A stretch of 64,000 nt of DNA from an uncultured bacterium (GCA_965372365.1 CBDVCA010000001.1:5810-69809), one strand, 5' to 3'. Positions 1,205 through 52,092 are shown, counted from the first letter of the stretch. A program made the numbers and translations. The notes: generated from the letters alone by a model not told the origin.

Positions 1205-1365
1205 TGTTACCGCGACGGCGGCCGGGCTCAAGAGGCTGTCGAGGCGAACCGGGGCAATCGGCCGGATTTCGCCGAACTTGCTGCTAGTTCCAACCGTTTA
1301 TAACCGATATAGATAAGCGCCCTAAGCCGGCAACGACGACCCGTAGATCATCGGTGGAGATTCAT

Positions 1366-3999
1366 ATGACGGTATCGCCCGCGGCCAACACCTACGAGCA
1401 ACTCGCCGAAGCCTTCGACGCAGCAGGCGTGGTTCGGCCCATGCGGATCGACCGCTATGAGGCCGGAGCCGAGCTGACCTACGCCGTCACCGGCGTCGCG
1501 CCGGCTGCCGAGGCGACCGTGCGACTGGTCATCGACAAGTTCGTCGGCGGCGGATTCGCCGGGCAGGTCTACCGGGTTATCGTCAAAGCCGTCGAAGGCG
1601 GACCCATCGCCGGGCTCAACGCCGGCGACAAGTACGCCATGAAGATCCTGATCCCCCCGTCGGGAGGGTCGATCCGCTTCCGAAACCTCATCTACTGGAT
1701 CGGGTTCCAGGCGCCGTTCTCGCTACAGGTCAACCCCGACGCCGCTCGCTCGGGCGCCTTGTGGCAGAAGTTCATCCGGCGGGCCGCGTCGATCGAATTC
1801 GGCTCCGAGCGAGCCGTGGTCGATATCATGGCCACGTTCGTCGATGAGCGGATGGGCAGTTGCGGGGAGCTCAGCGAATGGCTGGAAGGCCGCAATTGGA
1901 TCTTCGAAGTCGACGACAATCTCGCCGAACGCAAGAAATGGCGCGTCGGCGAGCCGATCGAGCAAGAGGGCCTCGGCGCCCCGGAGTATCGGGCGAAGAA
2001 GGATTTCATGGCCCGGATCGTCAAACTGTTCCACCAGGTGGGCGCCCCGGAGTTGGGTCGTCAGTACGAATGGTGGACCTGCAAGAGCCAGCCCAACTGC
2101 CTCAAGCGGCTCGACAGCGAAGGCGACCCGGCCGCGGGACTGACGGCCGTCGATTTTCGGGCTGGGCTGGCGCTGCTGTGCTGTCTACCGATGAGCCCCG
2201 GCGATATCAAACTGATCGGCGACGGCCTGTTCCAACGCGGCAGCCTCGTGCAGTTCGATCGCGGCAACGTCGACAAACTCCAAACCTACGTCGACGCCCA
2301 CGCCGACACCTTCGCCGACATGGGCGACGCACTCGACGAACTCAAACGCACCGAAGGCGCCTATCGCAACTCGATGATCGACGTCACGCACAACCACGTT
2401 CGCCTGCTGACCAGCGGGAAGTTGTGGGGTTCGATCTTTGACGCCGCGGTGACCAGTTGGCGCGTTCGGTCGATCGCCGACGACGCCTGCTGCGAGAAAC
2501 TCGGCCGCTCGCGAATCCGAACCGCCCTGTTCGCGATGACGGGCCTGTGCATCGCCATGGCCTCGCTGGCGAAGGTGGCCGGCGTGCTGGGGCTGATCGG
2601 CGCCGGCATCGCCGCAATGTTCAGCCGGCAAGGCGAACCGGCCATGACCTGGGCGACCCTCGCGGCCGGCGGACTCGTCGGCGGAATCGTACTGGGGGGC
2701 CTCGCTCGACTGATCCGAGCCGTATGGGGCCGGGCCGACCTGCGAAGCCATTACGGGCGGATGCTCACGTCGCCGGCGTACTTTCAGCGCGCCGCCAAGG
2801 CGCGAATCGCCGAGAACCTCATCACGTGGACCCGCCACGGACGCGTATCGCAAGAACGAGCCCTGCGCGTGAAGACGTCGGTCCTGTTCTACGCGGCCAA
2901 CCTTCCGCTGGCGGTGCTGCCGGCGGGGTTGCATCGGTTCTTCTCCGATGCGAAATTCGCCGCGTCCAAGCTGCATTACATCGTCACGCGACCGTTCAAA
3001 CTGTACTTCAACGCCGATGTCCGCGAGCAATGGATGCTGGAAATGCTCGATGACGGGCTCGCACATGGGATGGTCAGCGCCGACGAGGCCGAGACGATCC
3101 GTGGGCAGTTGAGCGAGCCGTTCATTCAGAAATACCTCAAGAGCCTCGCCGTCCACGTCTGCACGCTGCCGGTAACGCAGATCGTCTCGGTGGCCGTCGC
3201 GATCTTCTACTGGGACGGCGCCCTGTCGCCGAAACAGAACCTCGTGCGGGCCGTCGCCATCCTCGCGGCCTTCCAGGTGACGCCGATCTCCCCGGGCTCC
3301 ATCGTCCGCGGGCTGTACGTGGTGGCGATGGTCATCAAGGACCGCAATTACAAAGACTACAAAATCGCCGTGTGGATGGGCTTCTGGAAGTACATCGGAT
3401 ACCTGTCGTTCCCGATCCAGATGGCGTATCACTACCCGGCGATCGCCCGGTTCATGGCGGGCCGCTTCTCCACCGAGGCGGTGCACATTCTGCCGGTCTT
3501 CGGCGAGCACGGCGCCCTGGCCGAGCACGCGGTGTTCGACCTGTTCTACAACCGCCCCCTCACGATTCGCCGGCAGATGACCCTTCGCGCCGAGCAGCGA
3601 AAATCGCTCAAACCGCGACGGTGGCACATGCCGCTGATCGCCCTGGCGGCCTGGATCGTTGTGGCGCAGATGCCCGCCTGGATCGCCACACTCGGCGGCC
3701 GGCCGCTCGCCCAGCCGATCGTCGGAGGGTGGATGATGGCCCTGGCGGCGGTGCTCGGGGGGCTATGGACCTGCCGGCTCGCCGCTGGCGCATCCACCGG
3801 ATCGCGGATCACCATGGGCGCACTGTGCGGGCTGCTGATCGCCGCGTTCACCATCACAGCGAGCGTACTGTGGCCGATTGCCGGTGTGGCGAGTCTCTCC
3901 GAATCGATCGCCATCGCCCTCGTGCCGGCCTTCCTCTCAACACTGCTCGGGCTGCTGGCGGCGCTATCGACGGAGCTGTCGGCGACCGAAACGAACTGA
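1366..3999 (+). CDS. Large membrane protein: N-terminal protein-kinase-like domain fused to a polytopic (10 or more TM) C-terminal region; function unknown
   Basis: ORF track 1354(GTG)..3999; ATG at 1366 is preceded by GGTGGAG 6 nt upstream. Gly-rich loop plus lysine motif VIDKFVGGGFAGQVYRV...KYAMKIL, a KSQPNCL catalytic-loop-like segment without the canonical HRD Asp, and VDFRAG (DFG-like). After about aa 400 there are many long hydrophobic helices. Confidence 0.6.
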   Translation: MTVSPAANTYEQLAEAFDAAGVVRPMRIDRYEAGAELTYAVTGVAPAAEATVRLVIDKFVGGGFAGQVYRVIVKAVEGGPIAGLNAGDKYAMKILIPPSGGSIRFRNLIYWIGFQAPFSLQVNPDAARSGALWQKFIRRAASIEFGSERAVVDIMATFVDERMGSCGELSEWLEGRNWIFEVDDNLAERKKWRVGEPIEQEGLGAPEYRAKKDFMARIVKLFHQVGAPELGRQYEWWTCKSQPNCLKRLDSEGDPAAGLTAVDFRAGLALLCCLPMSPGDIKLIGDGLFQRGSLVQFDRGNVDKLQTYVDAHADTFADMGDALDELKRTEGAYRNSMIDVTHNHVRLLTSGKLWGSIFDAAVTSWRVRSIADDACCEKLGRSRIRTALFAMTGLCIAMASLAKVAGVLGLIGAGIAAMFSRQGEPAMTWATLAAGGLVGGIVLGGLARLIRAVWGRADLRSHYGRMLTSPAYFQRAAKARIAENLITWTRHGRVSQERALRVKTSVLFYAANLPLAVLPAGLHRFFSDAKFAASKLHYIVTRPFKLYFNADVREQWMLEMLDDGLAHGMVSADEAETIRGQLSEPFIQKYLKSLAVHVCTLPVTQIVSVAVAIFYWDGALSPKQNLVRAVAILAAFQVTPISPGSIVRGLYVVAMVIKDRNYKDYKIAVWMGFWKYIGYLSFPIQMAYHYPAIARFMAGRFSTEAVHILPVFGEHGALAEHAVFDLFYNRPLTIRRQMTLRAEQRKSLKPRRWHMPLIALAAWIVVAQMPAWIATLGGRPLAQPIVGGWMMALAAVLGGLWTCRLAAGASTGSRITMGALCGLLIAAFTITASVLWPIAGVASLSESIAIALVPAFLSTLLGLLAALSTELSATETN

Positions 4000-4103
4000 T
4001 GTCCTCCCCACGCACAGAAGCCATACGCTCGCGCGGACTATGCCCATGTGAGGTTCATCCGCGATTCGTGGGGAGTCCTTCCGATGAGCGCCCGCCGTTA
4101 CTA

Positions 4104-4264
4104 GTACTCTGTCACACCAAAACCTGCTAGGTCCGCGCCGTGCCGGATGGTCAGATGCAAGGAAGAAAGACGATGGCATATTCGAGGATATGCCGAGTTT
4201 TTCTGACGAAGCAGATGACCGTTCGCCACAAGCGGAGTTAGTAGGTTTTGGTGTGACAGAGTAC
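4104..4264 (+). mobile_element. MITE-a copy 1: 161-bp non-autonomous element with about 40-bp imperfect terminal inverted repeats (gtactctgtcacaccaaaacct...), flanked by TA (4102-4103 and 4265-4266)
   Basis: Seen in sequence: termini gtactctgtcacaccaaaacct / aggttttggtgtgacagagtac. Central core gatgcaaggaagaaagacgatggcatattcgaggatatgccgagtttttctgacgaagcagatgac is shared with the copy at 12562..12724. No ORF. Confidence 0.75.
4175..4202 (+). terminator. Terminator-like hairpin plus U-run inside MITE-a copy 1 (ggcatat-tcgagg-atatgcc gag ttttt)
   Basis: 7-bp stem and T5 run lying 176 nt downstream of the + strand kinase-like gene. The same motif is in copy 2 in the orientation of local transcription. 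The stem is AT-rich and weak. Confidence 0.3.
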
Positions 4265-4266
4265 TA

Positions 4267-4400
4267 GCCCCCCGCAGTGCGGGGGGTCGAGACGGGAGCG
4301 AACGGACAGAATGCGGATCGAGCTTTCGGTTTCCGCCGATCAGCGTTACATCCACAATAGGAATACCATCCGTCCCCATACCCCCTGCACTGCAGGGGGC
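4267..4400. mobile_element. Element Y: 134-bp TA-flanked element with 14-bp TIRs (gccccccgcagtgc / gcactgcagggggc), each terminus itself a GC hairpin; abuts MITE-a copy 1
   Basis: TA at 4265-4266 and 4401-4402. The outer flanks gccgttac (4094-4101) and gtaacggc (4403-4410) are reverse complements, implying a palindromic target gccgttacTAgtaacggc. Confidence 0.5.
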
Positions 4401-4511
4401 TAGTAACGGCAAGCTTCCGGCGGAGAGAACTCCCCGCTACTCCGTCATGGATCAGAAGAAACGCCGGCGACCCCCCCCAGCGGGGCGATCGCCGGCGGTG
4501 CGTGCGGTGTA

Positions 4512-6074
4512 TTAGAAGTCGGCCAGGCCGGACTCACCCGCTGCAACAGTCGATTTGGCCGTCGAAGCCGCAGGCGTCTGAGCGATCATGTGCCAAGGGT
4601 CGTCGCTGCCGGAGGAGGCCGGGACCGCTCCCGCCGCCGAATCGCTTCCGTCGACCAGTTGGGCCAGTAGGCGGACCTGCCCGGTCATCGCGACGGCCTG
4701 GGCGTCCAGTTCTTCAGCAGCCGAGGCCGACTCTTCGGCGTTAGCGGCATTGGCTTGGGTGCTCTGATCGAGTTGGGTTACGATCTCGTTGATCTGCTCG
4801 ATGCCTTGGGCCTGTTCGACCGTCGCATCGGAGATCTCGCCGATCAGGGTGTCCACTTTGCGAACACCGTCGGCGACGTCGGCCAACGACTCTCCCACCG
4901 ACCGGGTGATTTCCACGCCGCGATCGGCGTTGCGAGCGGACTTCTCGATCATCGAAGCGGTGTTCCTGGCCGCCTCGGCGCTTCGCTGAGCGAGGTTGCG
5001 AACTTCCTCGGCGACCACGGCGAACCCCTTGCCGGCCTCACCGGCCCGAGCGGCCTCGACCGCGGCGTTCAACGCCAATAGATTGGTCTGGAAGGCGATC
5101 TCATCGATCGTCTTGATAATCCGGCCGGTTTCGTCGGAGGACTTCTTGATGTCATCAATCGCGGTGGTCATCTTCGTCATCGCCTCGGCGCTCTGTTCGG
5201 CGGTGGAACTGACTTGGGCGGTAACTTCCTGGGCGAGCTTGGCGTTGTCTGCGTTCTGCTTGCATGACGCGGACATCTGCTCGGCGCCGGCCGACGCCTG
5301 CTCGAACGAGGCCGCCTGCTCGGAAGTCTGCTGGGCCAACGACTGGCTCGCTGTCGCCACTTGGCTGCTGGCCTCGCCGACCTGGGCGGAGCCCTCATTC
5401 AGGTTGGCAATGATCTTCCGCAGGGTCTTGGAGACGCCTCGGGCGATAATCGTCGCGATCACAACGCCTGTGACAATGGCGATGATCGATGCGACGGTCA
5501 CGATCAGCCGCGTCGACGACGCTTGGGCGAACACGTCGGCGTTGACCTGGTCGGCTGTCTCCTCTAGATGCGAGTTGGCGCCGTCCAGAAGCTTCTGGAG
5601 CTTGGCGAGCGTCGGCAGCGTCCGGGTCTGGAACGCATTCCTCGCCAGTTCCATGCCGTCAGCGCCTTGGGCGGCGTGCCCTTGAATTTCGATCGCCGAC
5701 TCATGCAGCGTCGCGTGATAACCTTCGACTTCCGACAGGATCGGCGCCAGAGCGGGCGCCAACGCCTCCGAATCCTTGCGATCGGGGCCGTAGAGCCACT
5801 TGCCCAGCGCGCACTTGTGATCGTCGGTCTGGACGTCCACCTGCGTAACCTCGTCGTCGGTGAACAGGGCGCTGACCTTGGCCGTCCAGTTGAGATGATC
5901 CACCTTCCTGCACAGCAATTCGGCATTCAACTTGCCTACGTCAATCGACGTAGTCACCCCACCTCGCATGCCATTGACGCCATAGACGGCGGCGCCGGCC
6001 AACACGACCAGCAGGGCGAGCACCGTAGCGAACCCCAGTCCGATCTTCTTCCCGACAGTTAGCTGCTTGAACAT
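4512..6074 (-). CDS. Methyl-accepting chemotaxis protein with an inter-TM CZB-like (zinc-binding) sensor motif, HAMP and MCP signalling domain
   Basis: Start at internal Met [10 protein letters not shown] with GAGAGG 6 nt upstream. TM1 [23 protein letters not shown]-like H-x2-W (DHLNW), 24 aa, CALGKW, 26 aa, HATLH. TM2 [25 protein letters not shown] core [38 protein letters not shown]. Confidence 0.85.
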
Positions 6075-6400
6075 ACTGGACCTCTCGAAATGCGAGACGC
6101 TGGGCGCGCCTCTGGGCAATTATGAATTCGCCGCATGGTTGTTCCGGACAGTCGCGGCGGCTGGCACAGTCGCATCAGAGAACCGGCGACAAGCCGACAG
6201 TAATGCCTGCATTCCGGGCAGGCGCAGGCTTGTCTTTGGCGAAACTACCGGGACGAGGTGAAACTCCTGGCTTCCAGATCACATATCATTCCAAGCTCCC
6301 CGCCGAGCGGGATGAGCCTATCTAGATAGCGACAGAATTGTCGTTCGACTTGAGCTGTACTCCGGCTCTGGAGCCATTCACGATTGAGATGCGGGAACCG

Positions 6401-6475
6401 AGCATGAGCGAGAACGAACGTGGCGCGGACGTAACAGCAGCCATAGCAACGCTATGGCGATACCGCAGCCGGCTT
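6401..6475 (+). repeat. Conserved hairpin module, copy A (GAGCGAGAACGAACGTGGCG...GACGTAACAGCAGCCATAGC-aac-GCTATGGCGATACC)
   Basis: Homologous to the copies at 11941..12030 and 12433..12505. Perfect 8-bp stem 6440..6458 with loop aac. Lies in the 480-bp MCP/pgpA intergenic region. Confidence 0.6.
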
Positions 6476-6557
6476 GGACCCATCGGTCAATCGCGCACCG
6501 CTCTAATAGAGATTTATTCCAACGGCAATGGCCCTACCCCCCATCCGGCGGCCCGCA

Positions 6558-7043
6558 CTAAACGACAAATCGCACGATCATCTGAGCGGCGATGTTGGCG
6601 TAGACGCCCGCGGCTAGATCGTCGCACAGTACACCCCATCCGGCGGGGAGTTTCTCCAACTGCCGCGCCGGCGTTGGTTTGAGGATATCAAATACGCGGA
6701 ACGCCACGAACGCCACACCCGCGGCTGTCAGGGCGCCGCCAACGCCGGCGGCCGGAAGAGCGATCAACGCCACCGCCTGTCCGGCCCATTCGTCGATCGT
6801 GACCTGGCCGGGATCTTTCTTGCCGAAGTGACGCTCAGCGAACGGCCCCAGGGCCACGCAGATGACGCTGCTGACCACCACCACCAAGACCATCGCGGCG
6901 TCAACCGCATACGAACGCTCGCCGTCGATCCGGCCGATCAGCAGATACAACGCGACCACCACCGCCGAGCCCCACGTGCCCGGTGCGATCGGCAGATACC
7001 CGGTCCCCAGGCCGGTCACCGCCAGCGTCTTGAGCCTATCCAC
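6558..7043 (-). CDS. pgpA: Phosphatidylglycerophosphatase A
   Basis: GTGYLPIAPGTWGS, TIDEWAGQ, FRVFDILKP...LPAGWGVLCDDLAAG motifs. Confidence 0.85.
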   Translation of the reverse strand: MDRLKTLAVTGLGTGYLPIAPGTWGSAVVVALYLLIGRIDGERSYAVDAAMVLVVVVSSVICVALGPFAERHFGKKDPGQVTIDEWAGQAVALIALPAAGVGGALTAAGVAFVAFRVFDILKPTPARQLEKLPAGWGVLCDDLAAGVYANIAAQMIVRFVV

Positions 7044-7695
7044 GGGTCGCCTCCACCAGCAACTTGCGAGCCCGACCCACGTAGGTGAGCCCGCTGAGAA
7101 TCGTGACGATGACGGTTCCCCACACCAGGGCGATCTTCAGAACCACCGCCCACGCCGCCTCCGGCAGCAGGGCGACCTGGAAGAGAACAACGCAGATCGC
7201 CGTACTCTGAACGGCCATCTTGATTTTACCCATCGACGTCGCCGGGAACGCCAGTCCCTGGCTCTCGCTAAAGCCGCGAATGCCCGAAACGATGAACTCC
7301 CGGGCGATCAGCACCACCACCATCCACGCCTGCACGGCGCTGGCCATACCGCCGTGGAGCCAGGGGGACATCGTCCGCTCCAGTTCGCTGGTGGCCTCGC
7401 CGCCGGGGAAGACGAAGTTGCTCCCCGAAAGCAGCGCGTAGGCGCCGCAGACGATGACCTTGTCGACGAACGGGTCGGCGATCCGCCCGAACGCGCTGGT
7501 TACGTTCCACTTGCGGGCCAGGTAGCCGTCGAGGATATCGGTAAGAGCCGCGATGATGAAGATCACGAACGCCGCCATCAGCAGCCCGACGTCGGGCTCT
7601 GGAACGATGTCGGCGACGGCCAGCAGCGAGAAGAAGACAATCGCCAGGACCAATCGGCCCAGCGTGATCTGGTTGGGCAATTTCGGATACACCAT
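7036..7695 (-). CDS. pgsA: CDP-diacylglycerol--glycerol-3-phosphate 3-phosphatidyltransferase
   Basis: CDP-alcohol phosphatidyltransferase motif DILDGYLARKWNVTSAFGRIADPFVDK. I chose Met MVYPKLPNQITLGR (7695) because GGTGGA lies 6 nt upstream; the track ORF extends to 7722. Overlaps pgpA by 8 nt. Confidence 0.85.
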   Translation of the reverse strand: MVYPKLPNQITLGRLVLAIVFFSLLAVADIVPEPDVGLLMAAFVIFIIAALTDILDGYLARKWNVTSAFGRIADPFVDKVIVCGAYALLSGSNFVFPGGEATSELERTMSPWLHGGMASAVQAWMVVVLIAREFIVSGIRGFSESQGLAFPATSMGKIKMAVQSTAICVVLFQVALLPEAAWAVVLKIALVWGTVIVTILSGLTYVGRARKLLVEATRG

Positions 7696-7725
7696 CGCTG
7701 TCCACCCATCAAGGGCCGCCAAGTC

Positions 7726-9096
7726 TTATCGGCGGCGGCGTTTGCGTCGCGAGGCCGCCTTCGAAGGCGTTACGATCAGGTCGTACTCGCTGTACTCGGC
7801 CACGGTCGCTCGCACAAAGGCTCCCGCCGGAGCCGGGTCGGTCAGGTAGCACACACTGTCGACGTCGGGCGCCTGTCCGGCGTGCCTGCCGACACAATAC
7901 CCGTTGGAATCGACGCCGTCGACCATTACCTCGATCGACTTTCCGATACGGGCGGCGTTGGCGGCCAGCGCGATCTCCTGCTGGGCGAGCATCAACTCCT
8001 CCACCCGCTTGGCGGCCACCTCCGGATCGACCGCCCCGTCCATCTTCGCGGCCGCCGTGCCGGGCTCGGGGGAGAAGGCGAACACCCCCATCGCGTCGAA
8101 GCGGGCCGCCTCCACAAACGCCAGCAACCGCCGATACTCGGCGTCGGTCTCGCCGGGGAACCCCACAATGAACGTCGTCCGAATCGTCATATCCTCAACG
8201 CGGCTGCGGAGCCGCTCGATGAGCCGCTCGGTTTCGGCCTCGCTCGTCCGGCGCCGCATTCGCTTCAGCACGCCGTCGGCCACATGCTGCAGCGGCACGT
8301 CGATGTACTTGACGACCTTCTCGCACTCGGCGATCGCGTCGATGATCTCGTCGGTCACCAGCGACGGATACGCGTACATCAGGCGGATCCACCGCACGCG
8401 ATCCAGCCCGTTGAGTTCGGCCAGCAGCCCGGCCAGGCCGGCGTCGTAGCCGATATCCCCGCCATAGCTGGTCGTATCCTGACCGATCAGATTCAATTCG
8501 ACCGCCCCGTCGGCGATCAACTCGGCCGCTTCGGCCATGATGCGGTCGATCGGCTTGGAGCGGAACGGGCCGCGAATAGCGGGGATGGTGCAGAAGCTGC
8601 ACCCTTGGCCGCAGCCCTCGCTGATACGCAGATACGCCGTATGCGCCGGCGTCAATCGCAGCCGCGACGTGTCGTCGCCGACCGCCGGACTGTCGGCGCT
8701 GCGCCGATACGCATCGACCGCCGTAACCTCCGTCGTCGCCGTCACCGCCTCGACCAGATCGGCGCGATTGTTCACCCCCACCACCGCGTCGACACCCGGC
8801 AAGGCCCGGCGTAACTCGTCGCCGTCCCGCTGGGCCATGCACCCGACGACGACCACCCGACGGACCGATCCGGCTTCCTTCATCGCCAGCGCTTCGGCGA
8901 TAACTTCGGTCGATTCGTCCCGCGCCGAGGCGAGAAACCCGCAGGTGTTCACGATAATCACGTTCGCTTGGTCCGCGTCGGCGCCCACGATGCAGCCGGC
9001 CTCGGCCAATAGGCCGAGCATCTTCTCGCTGTCGACGAGGTTCTTCGGACAGCCCAGCGAAATCAGGTTGACGATTGTCGGTTCTTCATTACTCAT
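7726..9096 (-). CDS. rimO: Ribosomal protein S12 methylthiotransferase (radical SAM MTTase plus TRAM domain)
   Basis: N-terminal ISLGCPKNLVDSE, radical-SAM CxxxCxxC (EGCGQGCSFCTIP), C-terminal TRAM-like region. Confidence 0.8.
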   Translation of the reverse strand: MSNEEPTIVNLISLGCPKNLVDSEKMLGLLAEAGCIVGADADQANVIIVNTCGFLASARDESTEVIAEALAMKEAGSVRRVVVVGCMAQRDGDELRRALPGVDAVVGVNNRADLVEAVTATTEVTAVDAYRRSADSPAVGDDTSRLRLTPAHTAYLRISEGCGQGCSFCTIPAIRGPFRSKPIDRIMAEAAELIADGAVELNLIGQDTTSYGGDIGYDAGLAGLLAELNGLDRVRWIRLMYAYPSLVTDEIIDAIAECEKVVKYIDVPLQHVADGVLKRMRRRTSEAETERLIERLRSRVEDMTIRTTFIVGFPGETDAEYRRLLAFVEAARFDAMGVFAFSPEPGTAAAKMDGAVDPEVAAKRVEELMLAQQEIALAANAARIGKSIEVMVDGVDSNGYCVGRHAGQAPDVDSVCYLTDPAPAGAFVRATVAEYSEYDLIVTPSKAASRRKRRRR

Positions 9097-9111
9097 AGAC
9101 CCGTTATTCTA

Positions 9112-9229
9112 CCAACTCGGCCCCGCCAAAGGAACCGGGCCGAGCCGACCGGATTTTCGCCTCGAGTTCCCACTCGGCCCCGCCAAAGGAACCGGGCCGA
9201 GCCGACCGGATTCTCCCCTTCGAGTTCCC
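9112..9229. repeat. Two tandem copies of a 58-59 bp unit, each with an 8-bp GC stem (ctcggccc...gggccgag) and 13-nt loop cgccaaaggaacc, in the divergent rimO/dus promoter region
   Basis: Units at about 9112..9171 and 9170..9229 are about 93% identical. Hairpins at 9117..9145 and 9173..9201. The minus ORF 9104..9487 translates the repeats (SARPGSFGGAE twice) and is not a gene. Confidence 0.7.
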
Positions 9230-9260
9230 CCCCCCTCCGCCGGCTGCTATACTATCGGCA

Positions 9261-10253
9261 ATGAGTGCTCCGATGAATGTCCAACCTCTCCGGATCGGCC
9301 CGATCGAATTGACCGCCCCGGCGGTGCTGGCCCCGCTGGCCGGGTATACCGATCTGTCGTACCGGCTCGTCTGCCGACGGCTGGGCGCCGAGTATTGCGC
9401 GACCGAGGTGACGCTGGACACGTCGATCAACCAAGGCGAAAAACTCCGCCGCAAGCTTATACAGATCCCCGACGAGGACCACCTCATCGCCGGTCAGATT
9501 ATGGGCCGCGAACCGGCGTCGGTGGCCGAGGCCGCCGGGCGCGTTGTGGCCATGGGCGCCGACGTGATCGATCTGAACTTCGCCTGCCCGGTCCGCAAGG
9601 CCCTTCGGCGCCGTCGCGGCGGGCACATGATGCGAGCGCCGCAAACCGCCATCGCCACGCTCAAAGCGGTCGCCGAGGAGGTCGATGTACCGCTGACGGT
9701 GAAACTTCGACGGAGCTTCGACGACGATGATACGACCCACGACGCGTTCTGGCGAATCGCCGAGGCGGCCTTCGACCTCGGATTCGCCGCCATCTGCGTC
9801 CACGGCCGCTCCGTCCGCGCCGGCTACGGCGGCCCGGCCGATTGGGCGTTCCTCGCGAGCGTCAAACGCCGCTTCGCCGACCGGGTCGTCATCGGATCCG
9901 GCGACCTCATGACCGCCGCCGACGGCGTCCGCATGCTGGTCGAAACCGGCGTCGACGGCGTCTCCTTCGCCCGCGGCGCCCTGGGCAACCCCTGGATCTT
10001 CGGCCAGTTCCGCCAACTCCTCGCCGGTCAACCGGCCGCGGCTCCGACCGTGGTCGAGCAGGCCCGGGTGCTCCGCGAGCATTACGCCATGTGCCTGGAG
10101 TTCTTCGGCCCGCGAAACGGCCCGGCCATGATGAACCGCTTCGGCATCCGCTACGCCAAGGTCCACCCCACCCCCCGTCCGGTCCGCACCGCCTTCATCC
10201 AGTCCGACTGCGGCAAGGACATCCCGAAAATCCTCGACACGTACTACGCGTAG
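9261..10253 (+). CDS. tRNA-dihydrouridine synthase (Dus family)
   Basis: LAPLAGYTDLSYR, GQIMGREP, DVIDLNFACPVRK motifs. TATACT lies 7 nt upstream of the ATG, which may indicate a leaderless start. Confidence 0.85.
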   Translation: MSAPMNVQPLRIGPIELTAPAVLAPLAGYTDLSYRLVCRRLGAEYCATEVTLDTSINQGEKLRRKLIQIPDEDHLIAGQIMGREPASVAEAAGRVVAMGADVIDLNFACPVRKALRRRRGGHMMRAPQTAIATLKAVAEEVDVPLTVKLRRSFDDDDTTHDAFWRIAEAAFDLGFAAICVHGRSVRAGYGGPADWAFLASVKRRFADRVVIGSGDLMTAADGVRMLVETGVDGVSFARGALGNPWIFGQFRQLLAGQPAAAPTVVEQARVLREHYAMCLEFFGPRNGPAMMNRFGIRYAKVHPTPRPVRTAFIQSDCGKDIPKILDTYYA

Positions 10254-10305
10254 GACTCTGTCCCATCGACAATGTGGAGTTGGCTGGCTTCCCGTTGAGG
10301 CGCCG

Positions 10306-11610
10306 TCATGGCCGCCGCGTCGGTCGACCGATAATCAGCCAGGCGTATTTGCCGCCGATGATGGACAGCAGGTTCGCTCCGGGGGGAACCAGGCGGATCA
10401 TCATCGCCACGATAGCGGCGACGACGCCGGCGATGAAGCCGCCGATGTGAGCCCAGTGAGCGGTGCCGGATTCCAACTTGGCGGCCACGTACAGCACGTC
10501 GAATGCAATATAGGCGCCCACGACGATGATGCCCGGCAACGAGAAGATCTTCTTGAACAGTCTGAACCCTGTGATGAGCCCCATCCGTAACCATACGACC
10601 ATATGGACTTTCTGGAGCGGGAACAGGATCAGGTACAACCCGCACATCCCCATGACGGCCCCGGAGGCGCCGAGCATGGGGATCGGCACGCCGCCGGAAA
10701 CCGAGGCCATGTGAGCCCACCCTGCGATCACCCCCAGCAACGGGTAGAGGATCAGCGTGGGAACATTGCCGATGACGCTGTTCACACGCGTACCGAACAC
10801 GATCAGGAACAGCATGTTGCCAGCCAAGTGCAGCAGCCCCCCGTGCAGGAATGCGTGGGTAATGAGCTGCAACGGCTGGAACTGACCGATCTCTCCCGAC
10901 AGTTCATAGGTCAGATCATCGACGGCCGCATCAAGCTCGGAACGATCGACAGTATCTGAGGTTCCGTCTGCGTACTCGACCTCCCCGACCGCCGGGTTTT
11001 CATCGAAGAACGCCTCGTCCACACCGGCGTCGATATAGGCCGCGACAGCGTATTCCCGGGCCGACATGGCGTCATTGTCCCAGAGCATCAAGTTCATTGC
11101 GGCCTTGCCGTCGCCGCCCATGTTGGCCGCGAAGAACCCCACGCTGGCCAAGACCGTAATCGCGAAGATCAGCCACGTAGCCACCGGCCGTTTGCCCCCG
11201 CCGGCCTCGGCGGCGATCGGATGCAGCCCTGTCGGGAACAACCAACTGAGCCAGCCGACAATGGTCTCGGCCCGGGTGTAGAGGTCGTCCAGATCGGGCT
11301 CGAATGATGTCATGACAGGCCGACCGCTGCTCGCCTTCACGCCGCAACGGACGCAGATCACAGCATTGGCCGCCAAGGTCTGATCGCAACTGGGGCATAT
11401 CGACCTGCCGCCGGAGGACCGGGAGACCTTGGCGGTGGGGATCGGAGTCGCCATGCGGGGATCGATCAACTCCTCGGCGAAATCGAGTTCAGCCTCCGGC
11501 GAGGGAATGGCCAGCGCCGCGCCGCACTTGGGGCACTTACCTTTCTTGCCGGCCTTGGAGTCGTCAACTTTGAAGTTGGCGCCGCATCCATTACACGCGA
11601 ATCGGATCAT
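10306..11610 (-). CDS. Rhomboid-family intramembrane serine protease with N-terminal zinc-ribbon domain
   Basis: Start MIRFACNGCGANFKVDDSKAGKKGKCPKCGA (MJ0042-type ribbon) with AAAGGG upstream. A second CxxC pair (CPSCDQ...CVRCG). Rhomboid GASGAVMG and AHIGGFIAG motifs. Confidence 0.8.
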   Translation of the reverse strand: MIRFACNGCGANFKVDDSKAGKKGKCPKCGAALAIPSPEAELDFAEELIDPRMATPIPTAKVSRSSGGRSICPSCDQTLAANAVICVRCGVKASSGRPVMTSFEPDLDDLYTRAETIVGWLSWLFPTGLHPIAAEAGGGKRPVATWLIFAITVLASVGFFAANMGGDGKAAMNLMLWDNDAMSAREYAVAAYIDAGVDEAFFDENPAVGEVEYADGTSDTVDRSELDAAVDDLTYELSGEIGQFQPLQLITHAFLHGGLLHLAGNMLFLIVFGTRVNSVIGNVPTLILYPLLGVIAGWAHMASVSGGVPIPMLGASGAVMGMCGLYLILFPLQKVHMVVWLRMGLITGFRLFKKIFSLPGIIVVGAYIAFDVLYVAAKLESGTAHWAHIGGFIAGVVAAIVAMMIRLVPPGANLLSIIGGKYAWLIIGRPTRRP

Positions 11611-11940
11611 CACCAGCCCTTTCGTGGTAGTTATATGCACAGGCCGCGATATGTCTGAGGCCCGGACCGGCGTAGGAGGCGAGCCCCCAAGCGATGCCCC
11701 AGTCAGAATGGAATCGGTCATCTGCCCGCGATGAAGACAATCTCACCCTCTCCGCAAGACGCCTGCCATGCATCGCCACACACCAGTGTACTCACCTCGC
11801 CCCCGCCGTCAACACCGCCGGGGGGACGGGCCTGCGCCGTCTCGATCCACGGACCGCTGTCGCGGCCCTGGTATTCTGTCCCTGGCATGAAGTCCAGCAT
11901 GAGATTATCTCCGCTTGGGCGCCGCGGGTTGCCCGAGCCA

Positions 11941-12030
11941 AGCGTGAGCGAGAACGAGCGTGGCGAGAACGAGCGTGGCGATGACGTTGAAGCAGCCATG
12001 GCAGTTCTGTGGCGATCGAAACGGACAATG
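11941..12030 (+). repeat. Conserved hairpin module, copy B (internal duplication of gagaacgagcgtggc; stem 11995..12013 kept by two G-U wobbles)
   Basis: gtgagcgagaacgagcgtggcg[agaacgagcgtggcg]atgacgttgaagcagccatggc-agtt-ctgtggcgatcgaaacggac. Lies in the roughly 500-bp rhomboid/nth intergenic region; no convincing CDS. Confidence 0.6.
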
Positions 12031-12401
12031 CCAGAAGGACTACCAGGCGCGCGATCCTCGCCATCGCATTCTTCATTGGCTCGGGGCCGCCGCGGTCGCG
12101 TCGGCGATGGAGTCACGACCGGTCCATCACCCCTCGCCCCCACGGGCACAGTTCCAACAGCCGACAATCGTCGCAACGCGGGCTCCTCGCCCGGCACACG
12201 GCTCGGCCGTGGGCGATCAGCAACAGGTGCATCGCGTACCGGTCCCGGGGGCGAATCAACGGGGTCAGCAAGTCGTGGGCCGCCTCGGCCGACGTTCCGG
12301 CAGGAAGAACCTCCAGGCGAATGGCGATGCGGAGAATGTGGGTGTCGACCGGAAAGACCGGCATACCGAAGCTGAACATCAACACGCAATAGGCGGTCTT
12401 A

Positions 12402-12559
12402 GAGCACTTTGCATAATAGATGTCGTGTTCAGGCGTAGGTGAGGACGAGGCTGGCAAGGACGTTGAAGCAGCCATAGCCTTTGCTATGGCGATGGAAACG
12501 GACGCCGCCAACCGATGCCGCAACCAGCATGAAGGCGACAGGTATTATGCAAAGTGCTC
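12402..12559. mobile_element. Element X: 158-bp TA-flanked element with perfect 17-bp TIRs (gagcactttgcataata / tattatgcaaagtgctc), carrying hairpin-module copy C
   Basis: TA at 12400-12401 and 12560-12561. Inserted in nth immediately next to MITE-a copy 2. Confidence 0.65.
12433..12505 (+). repeat. Conserved hairpin module, copy C (inside element X): gtaggtgaggacgaggctggcaaggacgttgaagcagccatagc-cttt-gctatggcgatggaaacggac
   Basis: Stem 12471..12490, perfect 8 bp with a 4-nt loop. A one-base loop-length difference from copy B shifts the reading frame while the nucleotide sequence stays conserved. Confidence 0.6.
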
Positions 12560-12561
12560 TA

Positions 12562-12724
12562 GTACCCTGTCCCAGCAATACTGTGGTGTTCTGACTTGCG
12601 GCGATGATGCGTCTGCTGCGTCAGAAAAGCTCGGCATATCAACCAATATGCCGTCACTTTTCTTCCTTACATCCACATCACCGGCGCGGCGTCATAACAC
12701 CACATTATCCCTGGGACAGAGTAC
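12562..12724 (-). mobile_element. MITE-a copy 2 (163 bp, inverted relative to copy 1), flanked by TA (12560-12561 and 12725-12726); inserted in nth
   Basis: Termini gtaccctgtcccag...ctgggacagagtac. Core (reverse complement) gatgtaaggaagaaaagtgacggcatattggttgatatgccgagcttttctgacgcagcag matches the copy 1 core. The TIR arms differ from copy 1 but stay mutually complementary. Confidence 0.75.
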
Positions 12725-13215
12725 TAGGGCCGACGCCCTTGAAACGGCATAGATACTCGAACGCCGCGGCGGGGGTCGCGTCGCCCAGAAAAGCCAAATC
12801 GATCGCTCCCCGCTCGGCGCGGATGTCGCGGAGGATCTTTCTGATTCGAGGCGCCTTCTGGCGTGACAAGCCGCTGACGCGAATGCATCGCTCGATGCGC
12901 CCGACCGGGACGTCGGCCGCGGCGTCCCAGGTGGACTCGGCGCCCGAGAACGATTCGACAAGCCGTCGGTATCCCGCTCGACTGTTCGCGCGGCTGGTCG
13001 ACTGCGACAAGATCGTCCCGATCAACACGTCGACCGGCGGACCGTGCGATTCCCACGAACGCCGACCGTACTGGTCGACCAAGCGGCAAAGGACATCGGC
13101 CAGAAGGCGACGGGATGTGAGGGCCGTGGGCATGGTGACGGTTCCGAGAATGCTTGCTCCGGCGAAGGGCGATCCAGGTGCCGACCGCCATCAAGCGCCG
13201 AAGACCGCTGCGCGT

Positions 13216-51252: not shown

Positions 51253-52092
51253 TTAGCCCGGATATTTCACACAGCGTGGTGGTTCCCCTATATCGCGACG
51301 GCCTTACTGTTTGGTATAACAAGAGTTAGCAAGATCTCCACCCACGCAGAAAGGCCGTCAACGATGACAGAGCGTCACCAAAAGCCCCTGCTGTTTTCAA
51401 GTCTTCTTCGGAAGAAGATCGTGGCGGATTTCAACGGTGACGACATCACCACCGATGGGGGTTTGCCGCTGATCCGCGAGGTGGACCGGAGGATCGGCCT
51501 GATCGACGCGATCGATAGCGCTATCGACGACCCCCGTTGCCCGTGGCTCATCGAGCACGACCAGCGAACGATCCTGGCCCAGCGGATTTTCGCTATCAAC
51601 GCCGGATACGAAGACCTCAACGACCACCAGACGTTGCGGAACGATACGCTCATGCAGGCCATCACCGACCGGCGGCTCAAGGTCGGACAGACCGAGCACG
51701 ATCCTCTGTCGAACCCACCGACTCTGTGCCGATTGGCCGGCACGGAACTGGCTACGGCGCAGGCGACCACGATCCGTCTGAAACTGCTGAAGATCGGGGG
51801 CCGCATCGTGCGGTCGGTTCGCCGTATCGCGATCCACTTGGCCGGCGGCTATCCGTTGCAGGCCCTATTCCACACGGTCCTGCACAATCTCCAGGAACGG
51901 AGATTCACCGCCGGCGGGCGCGACCTGGGCTTGCCGGAACCCTCTACATAACCTCCGGACAATTCGATTCTGACAGCGGGGGAAAGGGGGTTGTTCGTGC
52001 CGAGCGGGCGGCTATGCAAGCAAACCCAACTCCATATGCCCAAATGACCTCGCGACTCCCATCGCCAACGCTGTGTGAAATATCCGGGCTAA
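51253..52092 (+). mobile_element. Internally deleted IS1380-family insertion sequence (about 840 bp) with 25-bp perfect terminal inverted repeats ttagcccggatatttcacacagcgt
   Basis: IRL 51253..51277; IRR 52068..52092 is its exact reverse complement. It carries a 195-aa transposase remnant. No target-site duplication is evident. Confidence 0.7.
51364..51951 (+). pseudogene. IS1380-family DDE transposase remnant: N-terminal about 150 aa fused to the C-terminal about 45 aa, with the catalytic core deleted
   Basis: N-terminal family pattern FNGDDITTDGGLPLIREVDRRIGL…INAGYEDLNDHQTLRNDTLMQ…LSNPPTLCRLAG. C-terminal pattern KIGGRIVRSVRRIAIHLAGGYPLQALFHTVL. Full-length family members are about 430-470 aa. 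A possible internal promoter ttactg-N-tataac and GAAAGG SD lie upstream. Confidence 0.65.

What the first reader, a model, noticed from the sequence alone, without database searches (positions are those of the whole stretch)
4102..12726. New TA-targeting MITE family (MITE-a), two copies, TIR stems kept by compensatory change
MITE-a copy 1 (4104..4264) and copy 2 (12562..12724) are 161 and 163 bp long.

- Both are flanked by TA on each side.
- Both begin and end with gtacYctgtc...gacagRgtac.
- They share a central core of about 70 nt (gatgYaaggaagaaaRNNgacggcatatt…atatgccgagYttttctgacgMagcag).
- Arms are about 40 nt. Copy 1 has (ca)caccaaaacct.../...aggttttggtgtg; copy 2 has cccagcaatactgtggtgtt.../...aacaccacattatccctggg. 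The arms differ between copies but remain complementary within each copy.

The selected feature is therefore a roughly 160-nt stem-loop, not the primary sequence. The core carries a hairpin plus U-run that in both copies is oriented with local transcription. There is no transposase in the window, so mobilisation must come from elsewhere in the genome, probably a Tc1/IS630-like enzyme with TA specificity.
Basis: seen in the sequence. Interest (0 to 1): 0.75.

Follow-up and report, generated by a model that had tools for sequence, protein, structure and literature searches.

The report
TA-duplicating hairpin MITE family, Planctomycetota
The two flagged sequences are real copies of a small, non-coding mobile element (a MITE) that inserts at TA, one of them caught inside a DNA-repair gene; it is a new family of an already familiar kind of element.

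Summary
Copy 1 (4104-4264, +) and copy 2 (12562-12724, core on the - strand) are 161 and 163 bp. Both are TA-flanked, end in GTACYCTGTC...GACAGRGTAC, and fold into near-perfect ~160-nt hairpins.

Seven further members turned up in sediment-type metagenome contigs, in unrelated flanks, mostly inside cTA...TAg.

The decisive new result concerns copy 2. It sits inside an endonuclease III-like gene, next to a second, unrelated 158-bp palindromic element (12402-12559). Deleting both elements plus two of the three TAs restores an intact 231-aa ORF that aligns without a gap to solved EndoIII structures. This shows insertion with TA target duplication.

Twenty of 67 stem pairs show double (compensatory) changes. 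Wobble pairs concentrate on one strand.

The host is an uncultured Planctomycetota (Phycisphaerae-like) bacterium. A relative with 97.8% nucleotide identity lacks both copies.

No partner transposase was found. An IS630/Tc1-mariner type is most likely, and the IS5-family IS427 group is a live rival.

Verdict: a new member of a known kind, comparable to ERIC, Correia/NEMIS and Nezha. Interest is moderate to low. The open point is why the whole hairpin and a 62-nt core are conserved.

The parts
4102..4103 (.). TA flanking copy 1 on the left (context cTA)
   Evidence: Read directly from the sequence. The TA duplication is inferred by analogy with copy 2.
4104..4264 (+). MITE-a copy 1, 161 bp, forward (core) strand is +. 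It lies between the convergent 881-aa ORF (1354-3999, +) and the MCP gene (4512-6119, -).
4104..4116 (+). Copy 1 left terminal inverted repeat, GTACTCTGTCACA
4154..4215 (+). Copy 1 conserved core, including the central 9-bp hairpin 4174-4195 followed by a T-run. The terminator-like pattern matches on both strands.
4252..4264 (+). Copy 1 right terminal inverted repeat, TGTGACAGAGTAC
4265..4266 (.). TA flanking copy 1 on the right (context TAg)
12562..12724 (-). MITE-a copy 2, 163 bp, forward (core) strand is -. It is inserted inside an endonuclease III-like gene.
12611..12673 (-). Copy 2 conserved core, with the central hairpin at 12632-12653
12725..12726 (.). TA on the gene-proximal side of copy 2, one of three TAs derived from a single target TA
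12560..12561 (.). TA shared between copy 2 and the neighbouring element MITE-x
12402..12559 (+). MITE-x, a second and different 158-bp palindromic element (TIR GAGCACTTTGCATAATA). It abuts copy 2 and shares the TA-duplication signature.
12400..12401 (.). TA on the far side of MITE-x, the copy retained in the restored ORF
12727..13133 (-). N-terminal part of the split endonuclease III-like gene (HhH-GPD domain, ending ...FKGVGP). The reading frame runs on into copy 2 and stops at 12705.
12113..12399 (-). C-terminal part of the split endonuclease III-like gene (starts KTAYCVLMF..., carries the Fe-S cluster loop)
10250..10281 (+). Possible remnant of a MITE-a end. It is 84% identical to the terminal 31 nt of copy 2 and overlaps the Dus stop codon. 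It is not significant on its own (nhmmer E = 0.35).

Best explanation
MITE-a is a non-autonomous cut-and-paste DNA transposon of 161-164 bp with no coding capacity. Its termini are GTACYCTGTCMC...GKGACAGRGTAC.

Shown: it inserts at a TA dinucleotide and duplicates it, and the TA usually lies in the otherwise strongly avoided tetranucleotide CTAG.

Inferred: it is moved in trans by a DDE transposase encoded elsewhere in the genome. This is most likely an IS630/Tc1-mariner-type enzyme, and less likely an IS427-group (IS5 family) enzyme.

Shown: the whole element is a near-perfect palindrome that folds into one long hairpin in a single strand. A 62-nt core with a terminator-like central stem-loop is conserved.

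Inferred: the hairpin has been kept through many paired substitutions, with wobble pairs concentrated on one strand. This suggests the fold matters in one strand, most plausibly in transcripts that read through the element. There it would act as a stem-loop or terminator module, as in ERIC and Correia elements. That may explain why lineages retaining it persist.
For: Family membership and mobility:
- Nine members in all: 2 in the window and 7 in metagenome contigs with unrelated flanks and 52-62% GC.
- L046, L048, L049 and L051 are 93-97% identical to each other, yet sit next to different genes: LNS2/TPR, an unknown ORF, PEBP and PRPP synthetase.

TA duplication:
- The layout is tct-TA-[MITE-x]-TA-[copy 2]-TA-ggg.
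- Deleting 12402-12726 gives a 231-aa ORF reading ...FKGVGPKTAYCVLMF....
- That ORF aligns without a gap across the junction to Deinococcus EndoIII-1 (8a5c, E = 3e-39).
- Other excision models either break the frame or replace the conserved continuation ...GVGPKTAYCVLMF... with unrelated residues.

CTAG preference:
- 7 of 8 left flanks have C and 7 of 8 right flanks have G.
- In the window only 17% and 20% of TAs have those neighbours, and CTAG occurs 34 times against 219 expected.
- IS630 prefers TA within CTAG and duplicates TA (PMC2170065, citing Tenzen and Ohtsubo 1991).

Presence/absence:
- Contigs with 97.8% nucleotide identity (L052, L053) lack both copies.

Structure:
- 97.4% of cells are paired. 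Twenty pairs carry double changes, and 0 of 500 shuffles reach that value.
- In L045 the terminus is changed symmetrically, GTAG...CTAC.
- The forward strand folds 24-35 kcal/mol better than the reverse strand in the 7 full-length copies, and 15 kcal/mol better in the internally deleted L045.
- Twenty columns carry G.U against 2 columns with A.C. In an alignment that does not use a predicted fold, the counts are 53 G.T against 18 A.C.
Against: - No transposase with matching ends was found, so the enzyme family is inferred only.
- IS427-group elements also give 2-bp duplications (PMC3281130, Table 2).
- Only copy 2 has a proven target duplication. No clean empty site was obtained for copy 1, L049 or L051.
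- The copies are not independent. Most double changes lie on the single branch separating copy 1 from the rest. Many G.U pairs are inherited from a common ancestor.
- The metagenome members were retrieved with a 20-nt core pattern, so their core conservation is partly by construction. The copy 1 versus copy 2 comparison is free of this bias.
- Orientation relative to genes is uninformative in most copies, which lie between convergent or divergent genes. L047 is anti-oriented to its neighbouring gene.
- There are no expression data.
Confidence: 0.8

Rival explanations
1. Same kind of element, but mobilised by an IS5-family (IS427-group) transposase and not by an IS630/Tc1-mariner enzyme.
For: IS427-group ISs captured in Paracoccus give 2-bp direct repeats (PMC3281130, Table 2). 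The neighbouring MITE-x also duplicates TA although its termini are unrelated (GAGCAC...). So at least two TA-duplicating end types coexist in this genome.
Against: TA within CTAG is the documented preference of IS630 (PMC2170065, reference list). No IS427-like gene is present in the window or the fetched loci. I did not verify the target dinucleotide of IS427-group elements here.
Confidence: 0.2
2. The element is a TA-duplicating MITE, but the palindrome is kept by a neutral mechanism with no selection on the fold. The mechanism would be arm-to-arm copying, either template switching in quasi-palindromes or origin of each subfamily from a fold-back of one end.
For: Covariation includes the protein-bound termini (L045 GTAG...CTAC). 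Independent protein binding at each end does not predict that. The arms of copy 1 and copy 2 are almost unalignable (45%), yet each is internally complementary. That would be easy to reach by wholesale arm copying. Quasi-palindrome correction is an established mutational process (my knowledge, not checked here).
Against: Copying gives perfect Watson-Crick complements. It does not explain the excess of G.T over A.C appositions on one strand. It also does not explain the conserved asymmetric internal loops of the core.
Confidence: 0.25
3. A REP/REPIN-like element moved as single-stranded DNA by a RAYT or other HUH (Y1) transposase.
For: It forms a long hairpin with strand asymmetry. GTAG-like ends are seen in L045 and in the 10250 remnant. 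REP families and RAYTs are reported in Planctomycetes (PMC3733652).
Against: A TA target duplication is demonstrated, and HUH-type single-strand transposition does not create duplications (my knowledge). The unit is 160 bp, not 20-40 bp. Seven of 8 copies end in GTAC, not GTAG. No Y1 transposase gene is evident in the window's ORF inventory.
Confidence: 0.04
4. A host-encoded structured RNA gene or cis-regulatory hairpin that is duplicated locally and is not mobile.
For: The structure is very stable with covariation. The central hairpin is terminator-like.
Against: It interrupts a conserved gene. It is found in unrelated contexts in other genomes. It is absent from a 97.8%-identical relative. 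It has no Rfam match.
Confidence: 0.02

Closest known systems
ERIC / YPAL elements of Enterobacteria and Yersinia
   Same: They are non-coding imperfect palindromes, listed among the bacterial MITEs in PMC3733652. That paper states that bacterial MITEs transcribed into mRNA fold into robust hairpins that can stabilise or destabilise the transcript. That ERIC/YPAL are roughly 130-170 bp and TA-flanked is my own knowledge, not checked here.
   Different: There is no sequence similarity: no hit in 5,426 E. coli genomes. The phylum and termini are different. Here a TA duplication is demonstrated by ORF restoration.
Correia / NEMIS elements of Neisseria
   Same: They are MITEs of about 100-160 bp with terminal inverted repeats that form hairpins in transcripts (class description in PMC3733652). 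The TA duplication and the lack of a known cognate transposase in the host are my own knowledge.
   Different: The termini are different and sequence similarity to Correia was not tested. No promoter or IHF-site evidence was found here. The conserved core with a terminator-like hairpin is specific to this family.
Nezha (cyanobacteria) and eukaryotic Stowaway MITEs, derived from IS630/Tc1-mariner elements
   Same: They share the TA target duplication and short terminal inverted repeats, and are mobilised in trans by an IS630/mariner-type transposase (PMC2170065 for the enzyme family).
   Different: The autonomous partner was not identified here, so derivation from IS630 is inferred and not shown.
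REP/REPIN elements mobilised by RAYTs
   Same: They are intergenic palindromic repeats that form hairpins, are present in Planctomycetes and are often located 3' of genes (PMC3733652).
   Different: REPs are 20-40 bp, carry a GTAG or CGTC tag and make no target duplication. MITE-a is 160 bp, ends in GTAC and duplicates TA.

Membership tests
Bacterial MITE | Small (70-300 bp) and non-coding | tested here: met
   Lengths are 161-164 bp, with one 128-bp deletion variant. A candidate short ORF after AAGGAAG is not conserved, because loop indels shift the frame between copies.
Bacterial MITE | Terminal inverted repeats | tested here: met
   GTACYCTGTCMC...GKGACAGRGTAC is present in all 8 complete copies.
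Bacterial MITE | Target-site duplication on insertion | tested here: met
   A TA duplication is shown by restoring the endonuclease III ORF. TA or TG flanks are present on all 8 copies.
Bacterial MITE | Multiple copies in different genomic contexts; presence/absence between relatives | tested here: met
   Nine members lie in nine different contexts. Both window copies are absent from the 97.8%-identical L052/L053. The copy number in the host genome is unknown, because only 64 kb is available.
Bacterial MITE | A cognate autonomous IS with the same ends | not testable with these tools
There is none in the window or in the 62 fetched loci.
IS630/Tc1-mariner-derived MITE | Insertion into TA with a 2-bp TA duplication | tested here: met
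   The family property is taken from PMC2170065.
IS630/Tc1-mariner-derived MITE | Preference for TA within CTAG (IS630 itself) | tested here: met
   7 of 8 flanks on each side show it, against a background of 17-20%, and CTAG is 6-fold under-represented. Copy 2's original host site was cTAa. CTAG existed there only if MITE-x had inserted first.
IS630/Tc1-mariner-derived MITE | Ends matching those of an IS630-family transposase gene | not tested
   No such element was retrieved.
REP / REPIN (RAYT-mobilised) | A 20-40 bp palindromic unit with a GTAG or CGTC tag and no target duplication | tested here: not met
   The unit is 160 bp, ends in GTAC in 7 of 8 copies, and a TA duplication is shown.
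Any Rfam RNA family | Covariance-model match at or near the gathering score | tested here: not met
   At gathering threshold only the tRNAs match. In E-value mode the best hit on copy 1 scores 16.9 bits against a gathering score of 42.
ERIC | Sequence similarity to the enterobacterial consensus | tested here: not met
   No blastn match in 5,426 complete E. coli genomes.

The most novel reading that the evidence does not exclude
The long hairpin and the 62-nt core are not passive baggage. On this reading, the element is maintained and spread because one strand must fold. One possibility is a snap-back single-stranded substrate in which the two ends pair to rebuild a single transposase-binding duplex. 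The other is an RNA module (bidirectional terminator or processing hairpin) that makes insertions tolerable. Different arm 'cassettes' would then have evolved around one conserved functional core across several Planctomycetota genomes.
Probability: 0.15. Interest if true: 0.6.

Novelty: new member of a known kind. Interest (0 to 1): 0.35.

Why it matters
MITEs are little documented in Planctomycetota. A full-text search found only a survey of REP-type repeats.

This family gives a clean, sequence-only demonstration of TA duplication. It also shows nested insertion of two different MITEs that inactivates a base-excision-repair gene. Finally, it is a case where covariation and strand-asymmetric wobble pairs suggest selection on a single-strand fold.

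Practically, such elements explain assembly breaks and hypervariable intergenic spots in MAGs of this group. In two places, related strains carry different palindromic elements at the same locus. The elements also provide markers for strain-level variation. Conceptually it adds one more example to a known class and does not open a new one.

Tried and rejected
1. My only genome-contig scan used GGCATATNNNNNNATATGCCGAG, which was too loose. All 44 hits were chance matches with no similarity beyond the pattern.
2. Exact look-ups of the window's Dus, EF-Tu and the truncated Nth (P0125) found no retrievable source contig.
3. A small-ORF idea (AAGGAAG followed by ATG or GTG inside the core) was rejected. 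Loop length differs among copies and shifts the frame.
4. There is no Rfam match and no match in plasmids, E. coli genomes or viral contigs.
5. Empty sites were sought for L051 and L049 through 90%-identity orthologues (L057-L062). The elements are absent there, but the surrounding intergenic DNA also differs, so these are not clean empty sites.
6. An empty site for copy 1 was sought in two ways. L052 has different DNA downstream of the MCP gene. The 881-aa neighbour has no homologue above 67% identity.
7. nhmmer profiles of the full element and of the core found no further copies in the window or in the 56 loci held at that point; the full-element profile alone was then run on the 6 later loci and also found none.
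8. I tested whether the 10250 remnant and copy 2 bound a 2.5-kb composite transposon. This was rejected, because the indel relative to L052 (10266-13215) does not coincide with those ends.
Full report
**1. Observation**

- Copy 1 is 4104-4264 on the + strand. Copy 2 is 12562-12724, with its core on the - strand.
- Lengths are 161 and 163 bp. Both start GTACYCTGTC, end GACAGRGTAC and are flanked by TA within C-TA...TA-G.
- The 13-mer CTAGTACYCTGTC occurs exactly at the four ends. With up to 2 mismatches there are 7 hits against 0.7 expected, and no shuffle reaches 7.
- The central 62-64 nt are 81-84% identical between the copies. The arms between termini and core are only about 45% identical.
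- Each copy folds into one near-perfect hairpin: -112.2 and -105.9 kcal/mol, z = -16.5 and -13.5.

**2. Host and context**

Homologues of the window's Dus protein carry Planctomycetes/Phycisphaerae names. The window is a core-genome region with the ribosomal protein operons, rpoBC, tuf and a tRNA cluster.

Copy 1 lies between two convergent genes. One is an 881-aa ORF with strong coding signal but no Pfam match. The other is a chemoreceptor gene.

Two contigs from a close relative (L052, L053; 97-98% nucleotide identity) lack both copies.
- Downstream of the chemoreceptor gene they carry different DNA, including another palindromic element.
- The 2,950 bp at window 10266-13215, which contain a rhomboid gene and copy 2, are replaced by 23 bp.

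**3. It is a family**

My first collection scan was too loose and returned only chance matches.

A 20-nt core pattern then found seven contigs in the metagenome collection. All seven are true homologues.
- Five are full length at about 85% identity to copy 2.
- One has an internal deletion.
- One is cut by the contig end and has a third type of arm.

The flanks are unrelated and GC content ranges from 52 to 62%. L046, L048, L049 and L051 are 93-97% identical to one another but sit beside different genes. That is the signature of recent transposition.

One caveat applies. Only copies with an exact 20-nt core match could be retrieved, so core conservation among these seven is partly by construction. 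The comparison of the two window copies is not affected.

**4. Target duplication**

This is the key new result.
- Pfam shows that the ORF ending inside copy 2 (12705-13133, -) is the first three quarters of an HhH-GPD domain.
- The ORF just beyond (12113-12523, -) carries the endonuclease III Fe-S loop.
- Between them lie copy 2 and a second, different 158-bp palindromic element, MITE-x (12402-12559, termini GAGCACTTTGCATAATA). This gives the layout tct-TA-[MITE-x]-TA-[copy 2]-TA-ggg.
- Deleting 12402-12726, that is both elements and two of the three TAs, yields a 231-aa ORF reading ...FKGVGPKTAYCVLMFSFGMPVFPVDTH....
- This ORF aligns without a gap across the junction to solved endonuclease III structures (8a5c, E = 3e-39). 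Other excision models break the frame or the motif.

Both elements therefore inserted at a TA and duplicated it.

The original host site was cTAa. If MITE-x arrived first, its end created a cTAg, and copy 2 then inserted into that.

A 142-aa protein that is 99% identical to the truncated N-terminal part exists in public assemblies. The interrupted gene is therefore not peculiar to this window.

**5. Target preference**

Seven of eight left flanks have C before the TA, and seven of eight right flanks have G after it. In the window only 17% and 20% of TAs have those neighbours. CTAG occurs 34 times against 219 expected.

IS630-family elements insert at TA and duplicate it, and IS630 prefers TA within CTAG (PMC2170065 and its citation of Tenzen and Ohtsubo 1991). 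This is the basis for proposing an IS630/Tc1-mariner-type partner.

The proposal is an inference. No transposase with matching ends was found. IS427-group elements of the IS5 family also make 2-bp duplications (PMC3281130, Table 2).

The window has no full-length transposase. It holds only a 195-aa IS1380-type remnant at 51364-51951.

**6. Structure and covariation**

On seven full-length copies RNAalifold predicts 67 pairs.
- 97.4% of cells are paired.
- Twenty pairs show changes on both sides, against 5.4 +/- 1.7 in shuffles. No shuffle out of 500 reaches 20, and slid controls give 1-3.
- Even the terminus covaries in L045 (GTAG...CTAC).

The fold is strand-asymmetric.
- The forward strand, which carries AAGGAAG...GCCGAGTTTTTCTGACG, has 6-10 G.U pairs per copy. 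It folds 24-35 kcal/mol better than the reverse strand in the 7 full-length copies, and 15 kcal/mol better in the internally deleted L045.
- Twenty columns carry G.U against two with A.C (p = 1e-4). This count is biased because the structure was predicted with G.U allowed.
- An alignment of the left arm to the reverse complement of the right arm, which uses no predicted fold, gives 53 G.T against 18 A.C. These cells are not independent, because many are inherited from a common ancestor.

I read this as suggestive evidence that one strand's fold is under selection. It is not proof.

**7. The core**

The central 9-bp hairpin followed by a T-run matches a simple terminator pattern on both strands in both copies.

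Orientation relative to neighbouring genes:
- It is co-directional for copy 2, L049 and L050.
- It is uninformative for the copies lying between convergent or divergent genes.
- It is opposite for L047.

A short ORF suggested by AAGGAAG plus ATG or GTG is not conserved.

**8. Comparison with known elements**

There is no Rfam match and no similarity to plasmids, E. coli genomes or viral contigs. A full-text search for MITEs in Planctomycetes found only a survey of REP-type repeats.

In kind the element matches the bacterial MITEs ERIC/YPAL, Correia/NEMIS and Nezha. It has the same size class, terminal inverted repeats and a hairpin in transcripts. It also shares a TA duplication with Nezha and the IS630 family.

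It fails the defining features of REP/REPIN elements, namely unit size, tag and absence of a duplication.

**9. Verdict**

It is a new family of a familiar kind of element, with a neat proof of TA duplication.

Open questions:
- the identity of the transposase;
- whether the conserved hairpin and core reflect selection in RNA, a single-stranded transposition substrate, or neutral arm-to-arm copying.

Noticed in passing
window 12402-12559: MITE-x is a second, unrelated-ended 158-bp palindromic element (TIR GAGCACTTTGCATAATA). It is TA-flanked and nested against copy 2 inside the endonuclease III gene. Its architecture resembles MITE-a: a long hairpin, a central 8-bp stem-loop, and GCAAGGA...GACG bracketing the core.
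   Followed up: partly
window 11862-12056 and 6410-6461: An MITE-x-like core (82% over 71 nt at 11958-12026) lies within a degenerate inverted-repeat region. The outer arms of that region (CCTGGTATTCTGTCC / GGACTACCAGG) resemble MITE-a ends. A weaker x-like match is at 6410-6461. These may be old, decayed copies or hybrids.
   Followed up: partly
window 10250-10281: GTAGGACTCTGTCCCATCGACAATGTGGAGTT is 84% identical to the terminal 31 nt of copy 2 and overlaps the Dus stop codon. The first 16 nt are conserved in L052/L053, exactly up to the breakpoint of the 2,950-bp indel. It may be a remnant of a MITE-a end.
   Followed up: partly
window 10266-13215 versus L052 5983-6005: A 2,950-bp segment (rhomboid gene, split endonuclease III gene and both MITEs) is present in the window. 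In the relative with 97.8% nucleotide identity it is replaced by 23 bp. Whether this is an insertion or a deletion is undetermined.
   Followed up: partly
L052 about 47-225; L060 about 2770-2880: Where the window has copy 1 and L049 has its MITE-a, closely related contigs carry different palindromic elements at the same intergenic spot. L052 has arms starting GTAGCCCGGTCCGT. L060 has arms starting GGGTGCCACTACCCT. These spots look like hot spots for hairpin elements.
   Followed up: no
window 51364-51951 (+): A 195-aa ORF matches both ends of an IS1380-type transposase (DDE_Tnp_1_4, E = 5e-43). It is an internally deleted remnant next to the tRNA cluster.
   Followed up: partly
window 4453-6112 versus L052: The chemoreceptor (MCP) gene is only 87% identical to the relative, while neighbouring genes are 96.5-98% identical. 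This suggests recombination or diversifying change at this gene.
   Followed up: no
whole window: CTAG is strongly avoided, with 34 occurrences against 219 expected from base composition. Five of the 34 are contributed by the two MITE-a copies.
   Followed up: yes
window 4268-4290: A GC-rich hairpin (CCCCCCGCAGTGCGGGGGG) lies immediately after copy 1, between it and the 3' end of the MCP gene. It may be the native terminator of that gene.
   Followed up: no
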